DNA from: Perna viridis
Taxonomy: Eukaryota
Direction: 5' to 3'
Assembly: GCA_037379345.1 (NCBI GenBank)
Contig: CM074514.1
Coordinates: 3,286,001 to 3,350,000, forward strand
DNA: 64,000 nt
In this document: one piece after another, positions 39,001 through 45,000 of the stretch
Layout of the letters: each line of letters opens with the position of its first letter
Position numbering within the stretch: position 1 is the first letter of the stretch
Made by a program: the position numbers

Positions 39001-42000
39001 TTCTTATTCCATTTACTTAAGTTTTTATTTGCTTCTCTGGGACATTCTGTTTCTTTTGAAATAGTTTTTGTGTCACCTGGCAAGACTAAGGTATTTCTTT
39101 TCCAATGTTGTCATTGGCTTTGGCAGTTGTGTCCAAGTTGTGATCATAATGTTAAATTTCTGATTAGGTGATTTTAATTTGAACGACTTATGCTAGGTAT
39201 GTATTTAGCATCATTATATCTCAATTCTGTATCCATTAACTCCTGCAGTCAGGCTCTGTTGACATTGAAATTTCTTAATAAGTTTTCTGTCGGTTAAACA
39301 TGACTTGTACTAGGTCGATTGTATTTGGTATGTATTGCTTAATATTTCACAGTTCAGTAACTTTTTCATACATATGCCCCACAGTCTACTGACTTTGATG
39401 TTTACATTACTGTAGGCTCAGGAATTCTTTCTACTTAGGTGTTGTTAAATGGTTGTTTGGATATGATAAATTGTCAATAATATATAAAATTGTTACTATA
39501 TCAACTTTTGATTAACAGTGTCCATGTGTGACATATCTCTCTGATAACAGTTTATTGGAGATTTTTGTCCCAACTGCTTTGAAAATAAAGGGCTCAAAGG
39601 GGAAATTAGGCATTGAATCAGATTTCAGATACCTCTTATGGTTTCCACAATGTAAGTGGCAGAAGGGGGCCATGCCAAAAAAAAATCAGCTTTTTTTATT
39701 TATGGTCAGATTGGTCCCAAGTCAGGAATTTCAGACCTCTGTATGTCTTGTTTCTTTTTCACCTTTAGTTTATTTTTTATGTTACTTCAGTATATAGAAG
39801 CAACTCTTTTTACTGAACATGTGTAAAACAATGTTTTGGGGCCAGCTGCAGCCTGCCCTGTGGTATGATGATTTCCTGGTAGTTCATTGAAGATCAATGG
39901 GTGGCCTTGGGCTGACATTTTCATCCTGGTGGGGATGTTGTCTCTTTGGCATATACACCATACCTTTTCTCATTATATTAAGTGTGTAAAAACCAAATAT
40001 TGTGTCCACACTTGCCCACTTGTCTTGGTCAACATCTTTTGTTGTCTGTCCCTGTCATATCCCTTTTCATTGTTAACATAATCTTCTCATTTAAAACTAC
40101 TTAACCAATTATAACCAAACTTGGAATAAATGTTCCTTAACTGATGTTCATCCATTAACAAATGTGGCTGCTTTTACTAAAGATAGACCAAAGGGTCAAA
40201 CAGCTGTTTCTTTAAATGTCACAAAAGTTATTAGGTTCAAACTAAGGCTGACATGAGGGTCGGAGATTTAAATCTTTCAATGGTGAAACTGTTGAAATTC
40301 ATTTGATTCATTTTCGTGTCATTGTCCTTTTTTTTACATTGTTTTTGCTATTTTGTTGTTATTATACCTCCCACAAACAATTTTTTTTTTGGGGGGGACA
40401 TATGATTCACCCTGTCTGTTCATCTGTACATCTGTCTGTCTGTCCATCTGTCCACATTTCTTGTAAGAGCATCTCCTCTTAAATTGCTCAAGGGATTTTG
40501 ATGTAATTTTGTAGGAAGGTTGGGTATCATATGTTGATGTCCTTGAAGGATTATAATTATTGTCAGAGGTCTCAAAGGAAGATATTTTAAATTAAGAGTT
40601 TTTTTCATGTTAAAACAATTCCTCGATTTTATTTTTAGGAATATTGGGTATCTTATGTAGATGGGTATGAAGGAATGTAATTACTGTCAGAGGACTAAAG
40701 GGGGATAATTCAAATTAAGGGGTTCACATGTTAAAACCAAGCAAGCCTAAACTGCTCAAGGGATGTTGATGAAATTTTAAAGGAAGATTAGGTATCATAT
40801 GTTCATGTGCATGATGGATTCTAATTACTGTCAGATGATGAATAAAAGAGATAATTCAACATGTGTTGTACATTTGTGTCAATTCAAAGCGTGGTATTTT
40901 TTTTTGTGAGCTTGCTCACAATATTTCTAGTTATTTTTATATTTACATTTCCTTTGAAACTAATTGACCATTTTAAGACTTGGTATAAATGTGACTTAGT
41001 GTATTCTAATTAGAATTGGTGTGTTTTTTTTTTATCAGCTAACTGACAAACATGGCTGCCATTACTTAGATAGGCCATAGAAGTCATACTGTTTGACTGG
41101 ATCATAATTTTTTTCTGATTTGTTAACATTCCTTCATAAATTTAATTTTTATTTTAAAGATATTATATGTGCTGATAATAAGAAAAAGGGATATTTCATT
41201 CAATGTGAAATTGAGATTTGGTACAGGGAGCAGCATTTTTGAAGTTTTACTATAAAACTTATTTTTTTTGTGTTGCATAATGAAAATAAATAAATAAGAA
41301 AAGATGCTTATCCTCAATATTATTGCTAATGCATTAAAAACAAAGGCATTAATTCCTGTCAACAATTTTACACCTTATCTATAGTTTATATATACACACA
41401 TTTTGCTTATTTCTTAGATTTACAGATATAAAGATAAGCAGGTCTTATGGAAGGGGTGTGTATATATAATACCAAAGAAAATAACTACTGAACCATTCCT
41501 ACTAATGCACACAGTTAATATATGAGTTTATTTCCAGTATGTGTATTTCTCACATTTTGCAGAGGTAGGTAACATTCTTGCTATAATAGTTTTTTTTTCA
41601 CACAGATTACCCAAAGACAAAGAAACCAAAAAAAGTTAAGGCAACTGAAGCCCCACCATTGCCTCCAGAACCAGCTTATAAACAGGCTGTCTACAGACTC
41701 AGTATCTTCAGTGCTTATTGTATATGGTGGGATAGAACTACTGACCAGTGGTCTAATGAAGGATGTGAGGTAAGCCATGATTACTCACTGTAGAACTACT
41801 GACTAGTGGTCTAATGGAGGAAGTGAGGTAAGCCATGATTACCTACTGTAGAACTACTGAGCAGTGGTCTGATGGAGGATGTGAGGTAAGCCATGATTAC
41901 CTACTGTAGAACTACTGACTAGTGGTCTAATGGAGGATGTGAGGTAAGCCGTGATTACCTACTGTAGAACTACTGACTAGTGGTCTAATGGAGGATGTGA

Positions 42001-45000
42001 GGTAAGCCATGATTACTCACTGTAGAACTACTGACTAGTGGTCTAATGGAGGATGTGAGGTAAGCCATGATTACTCACTGTAGAACTACTGACTAGTGGT
42101 CTAATGGAGGATGTGAGGTAAGCCTTTATTACCTACTGTAGAACTACTGAGCAGTGGTCTGATGGAGGATGTGAGGTAAGCCATGATTACCTACTGTAGA
42201 ACTACTGACTAGTGGTCTAATGGAGGATGTGAGGTAAGGTGTGATTACCTACTGTAGAACTACTGACTAGTAGCCTAATGGAGGATGTGAGGTAAGCCGT
42301 GATTACCTACTGTAGAATTACTGACCAGTGGTCTGATAAAGGATGTGAGGTAAGCCTTTATTACTGAATGTAGAGCTACTGACCAGTGGTCTGATGAAGG
42401 ATGTTAGGTAAGCCATGATTACTCACTGTAGATCAATTGACCAGTAGTCTAGTGAAGGATGTGAGGTAAGCCATGATTACCTACTGTAGAACTACTGACC
42501 AGTGGTCTAATGAAAGATGTGAGGTAAGCCATGATTACTCACTGTAGAGCTATTGACCAGTAGTCTAATGAAGGATATGAGGTTAGCCATGATTACCTAC
42601 TGTAAAACTACTGACCAGTGGTCTAATGGAGGATGTGAGGTCAGCCATGATTACCCACTATAGAATTACTGACCATTAATCTTATGAAGGAGGTGAGGTA
42701 AGCTTTTATTACTCTTTGTAGAACTACTGAGGAGTGGTCTGATGAAAGATGGTGGGTAAACCATGATTACCCTTTGGAGGACTACTGACCTATGGTCTCA
42801 TGAAAGATGTGAGGTAAGCCATGATGACTCTTTGGAGAACAACAAACCAGTGGTTTCATGAAGGATGTGAGGTAAGCCATGATTACTATTTGTAGAACTA
42901 CTGACCAGTGATTTAATGAAGGATGTGAGATATGCCTTGATTACCTACTGTAGAACTACTGACCAGTGGTCTAATGAAGAATGTGAAATAAGTCATGATT
43001 ACTCAATGTAGAGCTACTGACCAGTTGTCTGATGAAGGAGGTGAGGTAAGCCTTGATTACTCCTTGGATAATTACTAACCAGTGGTCTAATGAAGGATAT
43101 GAGGTAAGCCATGATTACTCACTGTATAACTATTGACCACCAGTCTGATGAAGGATGTGAGGTAAGCCATGATTACTCACTATGGAACTGCTGACCAATG
43201 ATCCGATGAAGGATGTGAGGTAAGCCTTGATTACTCTCTGGAGAATTACTGACCAGTGGTCTAATGAAAGATGTGAGGTAAGCCATTATTATTCCCTGTA
43301 GAATTACTGACCAGTGCTTTTATGAAAGATGTGAGGTAAGCCATGATTACTCACTGTAGAACTACTGACCAGAGGTCTGATGAGGGACGTGAGGTAAGCC
43401 TTGATTATTCCCTGGAGAATTACTGACAAGTGGTCTAATGAAGAACATGAGGTAAGCCTTGATTATTCCCTGTAGAATTATAGACCAGTGTTCTTATTGA
43501 GAAGGTGAAATAAACCTTGATTTTTTGGTTCTTTTTAAAACAGTTAAATGAAAAGATTAACTCTCCAAGTAGTATCAACTCAACTTAAGCAGCAAAGACT
43601 TTGCTTTTCTTCTTTTTACTTTATTTTACCACTAACATCCCAGAACCATGTCCTTTCAACCATCAGACCACAATCAGCTCTGGACCATATTCACTGCCTA
43701 CCATGCCATCTGACATCCTTTTGTATTTTACTATTTTCAGGTTGGACCACTATCAACTCCAGACCGTATCCACTGCCTCTCCAGCCATCTGACATCCTTT
43801 GCTGCAGGTTTTGCTGTTCCCATGAACACAATAGACCTGAATGATTCAGCTTTTACTAAGCTGGATGAGAATCCCATTATTTTCTGCACCATGGTATCTC
43901 TGATGTGTCTGTATTTGTTGATGTGTATATGGGCTCGTAAAAGGGATCTTCTTGATAGAATTATGGTAAGGAAAACATGTATCTTTGGATGGAGATGTTA
44001 AATCCTTGAAAAGATCCATTTAAGTACCATTCAATATAAAATTCAGACACTGCCAATGATAGAAGTAATACAATGTGTAGAAAAAAAACAATGATTTTTT
44101 TTCAGTCTACACACACCAAATTCTTATGTTGCTGTAGTCCTTTCTTTATACATATCCCACTTTAATCAACCAAATCTTCATTACAATCAATATCTCAACA
44201 GTACAACATTGTAATGAGGGAGAGTAATCAAGAGAACCAAGGTTATAGCGGTAATCAAAAGAATGCATTCCAGGGACAAAGACCAGACATGGAAAACAGA
44301 CATACACAACAAAGAACATAAAGTAACTAAGATCATACATACAAAGTAACAAAAGCAAATGAGGAACTCAGACTCCACTAAAAACTGGGAGCATGGACCA
44401 GGTGCACTGGTAGGGTAAGCGTCCTCTGCTTTTCTAGAAATACATGACTTTGGTTATATTGTAGGTAACCTGTTTCTGAATTAGGAATAAAAGAGAGTTT
44501 TGTGTGTTTTTAACATGTATATATAACCTCAAATGTTTATAAAGATGGCTAATTTAAGTTTCAGTGAAGTAATGTGTCTTCAGAGTAATGATTTATAGTG
44601 TTCAAGGCGGTATGCCGGGAATACAATTTATCCAATCAAACATCTAAAAAGAAAAAAAAATTAATGCTGGAGCTCATTTTTGCAATGAATGCCTCTTAAA
44701 GCGATATTTGTTGAATTTCTATAGAGTAACTCAATAAATACACAAATTAATGATTCAAGACTATTTTGTTTATAACAGGCAGGATCATCACCACTTCCAG
44801 ACAATGATCCTAGAGATAAATACCTGTATGAATTACAGGTATTCACAGGTGCAAGAAAAGGAGCTGGTAATTACTTCAAATATTCTATATGAGTGTGGTT
44901 TGATGTTACAGTCTAGATAAAACAAGTTTAATATCTTTTTGTCAGTGTATATTGTAAATTTCAAAGAATATGTGTACTTAATTTAAACGTCGCTGTTTCT

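What the first reader, a model, noticed from the sequence alone, without database searches (positions are those of the whole stretch)
41733..43520. About 30 copies of the GPS-exon donor in a strict 58-bp register
Seen: the unit holds the last 37 nt of the exon encoding RTTDQWSNEGCE plus gtaagccatgattactcactg. The gag|gtaagc donor is kept in most copies over 1.8 kb, while other positions vary more in distal copies. Read-through hits TAG nine codons after the real donor, which would truncate the protein just before the GPS cleavage site and TM1. Many units also have ctgtag upstream, defining potential 34-nt micro-exons. Inference: distal donor use or intron retention could give an NMD target or a secreted ectodomain-only isoform.
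Basis: partly seen in the sequence, partly recalled or inferred. Interest (0 to 1): 0.7.

Follow-up and report, generated by a model that had tools for sequence, protein, structure and literature searches.

The report
Splice-junction minisatellite in a polycystin gene
A 58-base piece spanning the end of one exon and the start of its intron has been copied about 30 times head to tail inside that intron of a mussel-like polycystin-1/REJ gene; this is a known kind of repeat that, in the cases studied elsewhere, usually leaves splicing unchanged.

Summary
TRF finds a 58-bp array at 41733-43494 with 30.4 copies, 85% matches and no indels. Unit 1 is the real exon end (37 nt) plus 21 intron bases. 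The donor 9-mer is exact in 23 of 30 units, and GT is kept in 28 of 30.

The host is a bivalve polycystin-1/REJ-like gene, not human. Its oyster and Mytilus relatives run straight across the 41769|43741 junction.

Any use of a later donor, or of a 34-nt pseudo-exon, meets a stop within 8 or 3 codons.

This is the known class of exon-junction minisatellites. Amphioxus has "mirages"; human examples are F7, IFI6 and CBS. In those genes the first donor normally wins (PMC1557585, PMC3087553).

Three things go beyond the finding:
- 6 of 78 junctions in this gene carry such duplications, and 5 of 8 arrays are junction-anchored (P about 2e-4).
- The copied donors are substituted about half as often as the rest of the unit.
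- There are no small indels.

Verdict: a new member of a known kind, of moderate interest.

The parts
9212..57319 (+). Host gene: polycystin-1 / REJ-like (WSC, PKD, REJ, GPS, PLAT, polycystin domain, PKD channel), about 40 exons
   Evidence: Pfam run exon by exon. tblastn with oyster proteins P0001 and P0002 and Mytilus californianus P0069.
41606..41769 (+). Exon encoding the first half of the GPS motif (...AYCIWWDRTTDQWSNEGCE), ending in phase 0
   Evidence: Read. Weak Pfam GPS match, E 0.0025. P0001 residues 2554-2585 and P0069 residues 762-793 align here.
41733..41790 (+). Unit 1 of the array: the authentic junction (37 exon nt, donor GAG|GTAAGC at 41769|41770, 21 intron nt)
   Evidence: It carries the commonest base at all 58 columns.
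41791..43472 (+). Units 2-30: intronic copies of the junction. Units 2-10 are a young sub-array; units 17-30 are old and star-like around unit 1.
   Evidence: TRF, register, pairwise differences.
43473..43525 (+). Degraded 31st unit, holding the only AATAAA of the intron (43509)
   Evidence: (19 differences from unit 1).
41770..43740 (+). The intron (1971 nt); about 1.7 kb of it is array
43662..43725 (+). One diverged upstream copy of the acceptor junction and first ~60 nt of the next exon (offset 79), with its own CAG
   Evidence: Self-BLAST 43666-43800. Local alignment 43666-43715 against 43745-43794, 42 of 49 identical. z 9.8 against shuffles. The outer bounds beyond 43666-43715 are my reading.
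43741..43968 (+). Next exon: second half of GPS (HCLSSHLTSF) and the first membrane span
   Evidence: P0001 residues 2585-2659 and P0069 residues 792-868. The 3' bound is the end of the alignment, not a verified donor.
13818..14003 (+). Sister array 1: 61 bp x 3 on the donor at 13872 (53 exon + 8 intron nt)
   Evidence: z 32.
14747..15191 (+). Sister array 2: 95 bp x 4.7 on the acceptor at 15167 (about 40 intron + 55 exon nt; the last copy is the real one)
   Evidence: the last copy matches oyster proteins best; z 31.
25639..26246 (+). Sister array 3: 32 bp x 11 then 42 bp x 7 on the donor at 25656 (GAG|GTTAGT)
   Evidence: P0069 residues 269-302 end at 25656; z 27.
27172..28273 (+). Sister array 4: 48 bp x 20.4 (96% alike) on the donor at 27190 (TAG|GTAAGA), with a degraded tail
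   Evidence: exon confirmed against P0001, P0002, P0003; z 24.

Best explanation
This is a junction-spanning minisatellite. A 58-bp segment covering the last 37 nt of an exon and the first 21 nt of its intron was duplicated in tandem and amplified to about 30 copies. All extra copies lie inside the intron, which grew to roughly ten times its likely original length.

The spliceosome most likely uses the first (authentic) donor, which is paired with the upstream acceptor across a 164-nt exon. The 27 later GT-bearing copies would then be silent or nearly silent pseudo-donors, and any RNA made from them would be stopped early and lost.

The array is mostly neutral intron filler. An old burst produced units 11-30, and a later local re-amplification produced units 2-10.

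Shown here: the anatomy, the origin from the junction, the age structure, and the early stops. Inferred: that the first donor dominates.
For: Array and register. Unit 1 is the true exon end.

Oyster P0001 and P0002 and Mytilus P0069 align without extra residues across 41769|43741.

Read-through stops after 7 codons. A 34-nt pseudo-exon gives a stop at codon 3 in 28 of 29 units, and all three frames of the array are closed (63-68 stops each).

Units 17-30 differ from unit 1 by 5-11 bases but from each other by 12.2 on average, which is a star-like pattern. Units 2-10 differ by 3.9 on average, with two identical pairs.

The pseudo-donors do decay: 7 of 30 are not exact and 2 have lost GT.

No RNA or DNA structure stands out (z -1.1 and -1.7). 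Rfam gives no match.

The same architecture occurs at five other junctions of this gene, both donor and acceptor, which argues for a general duplication process rather than a device special to the GPS exon.

Published analogues behave this way. In human F7 IVS7 only the most upstream donor is used. IFI6 and CBS use at most the two nearest copies (PMC1557585, introduction and discussion read). Amphioxus mirages do not disturb splicing (PMC3087553 and PMC3902484, passages read).
Against: The copied donors are substituted about half as often as the rest of the unit (11/180 against 125/980, Fisher 0.011; 11 observed against 25 expected by base, P 0.0014). Plain neutrality does not predict this.

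There are no small indels across 30 units, where about 13 would be expected from the window's dispersed repeats. However, the unit has very few homopolymer runs (1.7 per kb against 22.9 per kb), which may explain this.

Junction-anchored arrays are far more common in this gene than random seeding predicts (5 of 8, P 2.3e-4). The origin may therefore not be random.

No transcript data were available, so the silence of the pseudo-donors rests on analogy with mammals and amphioxus.
Confidence: 0.72

Rival explanations
1. The reiterated donors are kept by selection as a row of U1 snRNP binding sites inside the intron. They might strengthen recognition of the upstream exon, or protect the long AT-rich pre-mRNA from premature cleavage, without being used for splicing.
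For: The donor 9-mer is substituted at about half the rate of the rest of the unit. The 58-bp register is strict with no indels. GT is kept in 28/30, 15/17, 20/20 and 3/3 units of the four donor arrays. GAG|GTAAGC matches the MAG|GURAGU consensus quoted in PMC1557585 at 7 of 9 positions.
Against: 8 of the 9 donor columns vary, and variant types per column are no fewer than elsewhere (10 per 9 against 59 per 49). The low-variation block is wider than the donor, and 3 of 58 windows are as low. Acceptor junctions are duplicated too, which a U1 role does not explain. The intron holds only one AATAAA. The role of U1 in protecting pre-mRNA is recalled knowledge and was not tested here.
Confidence: 0.12
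2. One reading: later donors, pseudo-exons or intron retention are used in a regulated way. This would give decay-targeted transcripts or a truncated, secreted ectodomain.
For: 19 of 29 downstream units have both TAG and a GT donor around a 34-nt pseudo-exon. In human IFI6 and CBS the two nearest pseudo-donors are used (PMC1557585, introduction). One AATAAA lies at the array's end.
Against: Every alternative gives a stop within 3-8 codons, in the middle of the GPS motif, so a folded secreted product is unlikely (inference). The gap between a donor and the next unit's TAG is only 24 nt, and the pseudo-acceptors have poor pyrimidine tracts (read). Annotated relatives are colinear across the junction. 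Amphioxus mirages and F7 show no aberrant mRNAs (PMC3902484, PMC1557585).
Confidence: 0.08
3. The array is a satellite carried by a mobile element, or an assembly artefact, that merely abuts the exon.
For: Bivalve genomes hold many short satellite-like arrays carried by Helentron-type elements (PMC7492417, abstract in the search listing only).
Against: Unit 1 is the conserved coding end of the exon itself. There is no copy elsewhere in the window. The units are individually diverged in a tree-like way, unlike a collapsed or inflated assembly.
Confidence: 0.02

Closest known systems
Amphioxus 'mirages': minisatellite-like tandem duplications of exon/intron boundaries (Adh3, troponin C, globins BflGb6/BflGb9, PGBD5)
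   Same: The repeat unit spans an exon/intron boundary. Both 5' and 3' boundaries can be duplicated. Units are 10-160 bp. Many copies keep AG/GT signals. Several loci are affected per genome. Regular splicing is reported as undisturbed (PMC3087553 and PMC3902484, passages read).
   Different: The host here is a bivalve mollusc, not a cephalochordate. The copy number is much higher (30, against 3-6 in the globins). Six junctions are affected in a single gene. Length polymorphism and transcript behaviour were not testable here.
Human F7 intron 7 37-bp VNTR, and the IFI6 (6-16), CBS, LMNB2 and PDGF junction minisatellites
   Same: The first monomer spans the exon/intron boundary, so the authentic donor is followed by identical pseudo-donors. 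IFI6 has 25 pseudo-sites, close to the 29 here. The most upstream donor is selected (PMC1557585; abstract, introduction and discussion read).
   Different: In F7 only 4 exon bases are in the unit, against 37 here. The human arrays are polymorphic VNTRs with near-identical units. Here most units are old and 9-19% diverged from unit 1.
Rogers-type intron gain by tandem duplication of an AG|GT-containing segment
   Same: Tandem duplication places extra splice signals next to a coding segment (as discussed in PMC3087553).
   Different: No new intron is created here. An existing intron is lengthened, and the intron position is shared with oyster and Mytilus relatives.

Membership tests
Junction-spanning minisatellite ('mirage' / F7-type) | Head-to-tail array of minisatellite-sized units | tested here: met
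   58 bp x 30.4, 85% matches, 0 indels.
Junction-spanning minisatellite ('mirage' / F7-type) | A terminal unit is the authentic exon/intron junction | tested here: met
   Unit 1 holds the exon end and donor. Relatives' proteins align up to 41769-41772 and resume at 43741.
Junction-spanning minisatellite ('mirage' / F7-type) | Splice signal reiterated in the intronic copies | tested here: met
   Exact 9-mer in 23 of 30 units, GT in 28 of 30.
Junction-spanning minisatellite ('mirage' / F7-type) | Normal splicing kept; pseudo-sites silent or nearly so | not testable with these tools
   No transcript data. The only indirect evidence is that annotated relatives are colinear and that every alternative meets an early stop.
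Junction-spanning minisatellite ('mirage' / F7-type) | Copy-number polymorphism or instability | not testable with these tools
   Only one haplotype is in hand, and no eukaryotic genome collection was open.
Polycystin-1 / REJ family (host gene) | PKD repeats, REJ module, GPS, PLAT, polycystin domain and PKD channel, in that order | tested here: met
   Pfam run exon by exon: WSC, PKD, REJ, GPS (weak, E 0.0025), PLAT, Polycystin_dom, PKD_channel. Full GPS at residues 775-813 of the relative P0069. The exons were not joined.
Adhesion GPCR (implied by 'GPS ... TM1') | GPS followed by a seven-helix class B2 receptor domain | tested here: not met
   Downstream exons give PLAT, polycystin domain and PKD channel, with no 7TM family.

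The most novel reading that the evidence does not exclude
Exon/intron junctions are preferred birthplaces of minisatellites in this bivalve genome, as suspected for amphioxus. That would point to a mutational process tied to splice junctions, through transcription, splicing or exon-edge chromatin. It would lengthen introns from their ends. The copied donors may also be partly protected by selection as U1-binding sites. In this gene 6 of 78 junctions are affected, 5 of 8 arrays are junction-anchored (P 2.3e-4), and copied donors change at about half the expected rate.
Probability: 0.15. Interest if true: 0.65.

Novelty: new member of a known kind. Interest (0 to 1): 0.35.

Why it matters
On its own the array is an ordinary, if unusually long, example of a repeat type known from amphioxus and a few human genes. 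It matters for three reasons.

- It puts this repeat type in a mollusc. My six answered searches of the held library found no bivalve report.
- One gene carries six junction duplications. Introns of 0.7-2 kb are made largely of copies of their own ends, so this may be a real route of intron growth.
- A row of 27 near-identical extra donors behind an authentic one is a natural test of how a non-mammalian spliceosome picks the first site.

It also warns gene predictors and read mappers about false exons in such introns.

Tried and rejected
- Secondary structure that might hide the pseudo-donors or favour slippage: not beyond shuffles. RNA 41606-41906 gives z -1.1 and DNA of two units gives z -1.7.
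- Known RNA families: 0 matches in the whole window.
- A coding role for the array: rejected. There are 63-68 stops per frame and the longest open stretch is 42 codons.
- Mobile-element or satellite origin: rejected, because no copy lies elsewhere in the window.
- Donor conservation in the sister arrays: uninformative. The 48-bp array is too young (0/180 against 36/780; 16 of 48 windows equal). The 32/42-bp array is dominated by shared variants (4/144 against 57/368; 5 of 32 windows as low).
- Clustering of donor hits in units 18, 21 and 22: not beyond chance by a hand estimate.
- Two borderline junction copies (donor 38673, z 4.7; acceptor 20669, z 4.0): these are a low-complexity run and a 20-nt match, and were not counted.
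- Looking for this species' own protein, to see how the junction is annotated: the best hit was a 94%-identical Mytilus californianus protein, and no identical one was found.
- One literature search failed on a term format and was not re-sent.
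Full report
**What is there**

The window has no N and is 33% G+C. TRF reports an array at 41733-43494 with period 58, 30.4 copies, 85% matches, no indels and score 2241. Cutting every 58 bases from 41733 keeps 30 units in register, followed by a degraded 31st unit.

Unit 1 is the last 37 nt of an exon (41606-41769...AYCIWWDRTTDQWSNEGCE, ending in phase 0) plus the first 21 nt of the intron. Self-BLAST of the window finds the repeat only at this place.

**The host gene and organism**

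Pfam, run exon by exon, gives WSC, PKD, REJ, a weak GPS match, PLAT, polycystin domain and PKD channel, in order, on the + strand from about 9.2 to 57.3 kb. The gene is therefore a polycystin-1/REJ-type gene, not an adhesion GPCR.

The 1105-codon exon finds oyster proteins at 47-48% identity and Solemya at 36%. The GPS exon finds a Mytilus californianus "polycystin family receptor for egg jelly-like" protein, P0069, at 94% identity. Across the exons P0069 is 39-94% identical. I take the window for a bivalve, probably a mussel relative. It is not human.

I searched the spliced model exon by exon and left out the step of joining the exons.

**The junction**

Oyster P0001 aligns with residues 2554-2585 at 41677-41772 and residues 2585-2659 at 43741-43965. 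P0069 aligns with residues 762-793 and 792-868 at the same places. The relatives therefore run straight across 41769|43741 with no extra residues.

Pfam places GPS at residues 775-813 of P0069, so this intron splits the GPS motif. The HLT motif (HCLSSHLTSF) and the first membrane span are in the next exon.

**Consequences of using other sites**

Read-through gives VSHDYSL and then TAG at 41791-41793. That is the 8th codon after the donor, not the 9th.

A 34-nt pseudo-exon spliced in phase 0 meets a stop at its third codon in 28 of 29 units. All three frames of the array are closed. The intron holds one AATAAA, at 43509.

TAG opens 21 of the 29 downstream units, and 19 of those also keep GT. 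The gap from a donor to the next unit's TAG is 24 nt, and the pyrimidine tracts are poor (read).

**Is the donor kept better than the rest?**

Against the commonest base per column, the donor 9-mer has 12/270 mismatches and the other columns have 168/1470. Nine random columns do as well in 3.2% of draws, and the donor window ranks 2nd of 58.

The pairwise matrix shows that units 17-30 form a star around unit 1. They differ from unit 1 by 5-11 bases and from each other by 12.2 on average. Units 2-10 are a young sub-array with a mean of 3.9 differences; units 3 and 8 are identical, as are units 5 and 6.

In the star-like units 11-30, differences from unit 1 are close to independent events. There the donor has 11/180 and the rest 125/980 (Fisher 0.011; 3 of 58 windows as low). 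With base-specific rates, 25 differences were expected and 11 were seen (P 0.0014).

Against this, 8 of the 9 donor columns vary. Variant types per column are 10 per 9 in the donor and 59 per 49 elsewhere (counted). The quiet block is also wider than the donor.

The donor therefore decays, but at about half the rate of the rest.

**No indels**

The window's 18 non-array repeat pairs show 42 gap openings per 435 mismatches. At that ratio the 136 substitutions of units 11-30 predict about 13 small indels, and none is seen.

However, the array has 1.7 homopolymer runs of four or more per kb, against 22.9 per kb in the window. This may largely explain the lack of indels.

**The wider pattern**

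Reading the other TRF arrays against the exons shows the same design at other junctions:

- Donor at 13872: 61 bp x 3.
- Donor at 25656: 32 bp x 11, then 42 bp x 7.
- Donor at 27190: 48 bp x 20.
- Acceptor at 15167: 95 bp x 4.7, with the last copy being the real one.

These come, and the exons were confirmed.

The far end of the finding's own intron holds one diverged copy of the acceptor and the start of the next exon (43666-43715 against 43745-43794, 42 of 49 identical).

I tested all 78 internal junctions against their adjoining introns. Six stand out at z of 5 or more, and 72 do not. Two borderline cases were inspected and dropped.

Of the 8 TRF array loci inside the gene, 5 are junction-anchored. 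Under random seeding of a unit-sized duplication in intron-plus-junction space, this has P = 2.3e-4. That null is my own and is simple.

**What is known**

PMC1557585 (abstract, introduction and discussion read) describes minisatellites whose first monomer spans an exon/intron boundary in human F7, IFI6 (25 pseudo-sites), CBS, LMNB2 and PDGF. In F7 only the most upstream donor is used. In IFI6 and CBS the two nearest copies are used as well.

PMC3087553 and PMC3902484 (passages read) describe amphioxus "mirages". These are tandem duplications of either boundary, found in Adh3, troponin C, globins and PGBD5, which do not give aberrant mRNAs.

My six answered searches found no bivalve report. 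Supplements were not consulted.

**Verdict**

This is a long, old, mirage-type junction minisatellite, most likely neutral, with the first donor dominant. Three features are left unexplained: the excess of arrays at junctions, the halved decay of the donor, and the lack of indels.

No structure or RNA family explains it.

Unchecked for lack of data: transcripts, other haplotypes, and orthologous introns.

Noticed in passing
window 13818-14003, 14747-15191, 25639-26246, 27172-28273, 43662-43725: Five further tandem duplications sit exactly on exon/intron junctions of the same gene: three donors and two acceptors. Introns of 0.7-2 kb are largely built from copies of their own ends.
   Followed up: yes
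window 27082-27190 and 28480-28649: The two exons flanking the 48-bp array intron are present in the oyster and Solemya proteins but have no counterpart in the Mytilus californianus model P0069, which goes from 26498 straight to 28881. Together they are 109+170 = 279 nt, so skipping both keeps the frame.
   Followed up: partly
window 13872-13880 versus 13933-13941 and 13994-14002: In the 61-bp array the authentic donor reads GTACAG, while both intronic copies read GTAAAG. The copies are therefore closer to the usual donor consensus than the site taken as real.
   Followed up: no
window 25639-25670: In the 32-bp array the authentic exon copy differs from all 16 intronic copies at one exon column. 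Either the exon copy changed after amplification, or the array grew from a variant.
   Followed up: no
window 33034-36930: A degraded BEL/Pao-like retrotransposon piece lies in the 6.9-kb intron. One ORF matches Pao retrotransposon peptidase (E 1.9e-10). A 75-bp direct repeat, 83% alike, lies at both ends. The reading frame is split over several short ORFs in different frames. The breaks were not counted further.
   Followed up: partly
window 55610-56365, - strand: Short ORFs in an intron have a cysteine/histidine-rich tail that, from memory, resembles the C-terminus of non-LTR retrotransposon proteins. There was no Pfam match.
   Followed up: no
window 3075-3299 / 44221-44446; 6405-6805 / 10529-10920; 19434-19613 / 29583-30009; 40460-40859 / 51453-51642; 6553-6760 and 10670-10887 / 61884-62261: Dispersed repeat families 72-89% alike, inside and outside the gene. 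They are probably small mobile elements.
   Followed up: no
window 61621-62849, - strand: A second gene lies at the right end. One exon encodes a Dpy-30 motif (E 3.4e-14).
   Followed up: no
window 43741-43800: The GPS motif reads HCLSSHLTSF, in both the window and the Mytilus relative. From memory, the usual motif has a second cysteine two residues before the His, where this one has Ser.
   Followed up: no
window 2795-2941, 5307-5415, 8647-8757, 10238-10399, 57897-58085: Other tandem arrays (periods 54, 25, 33, 80 and 45) lie outside the gene or away from junctions. Their relation to any exon was not examined, except that 10238-10399 is not at a junction.
   Followed up: no
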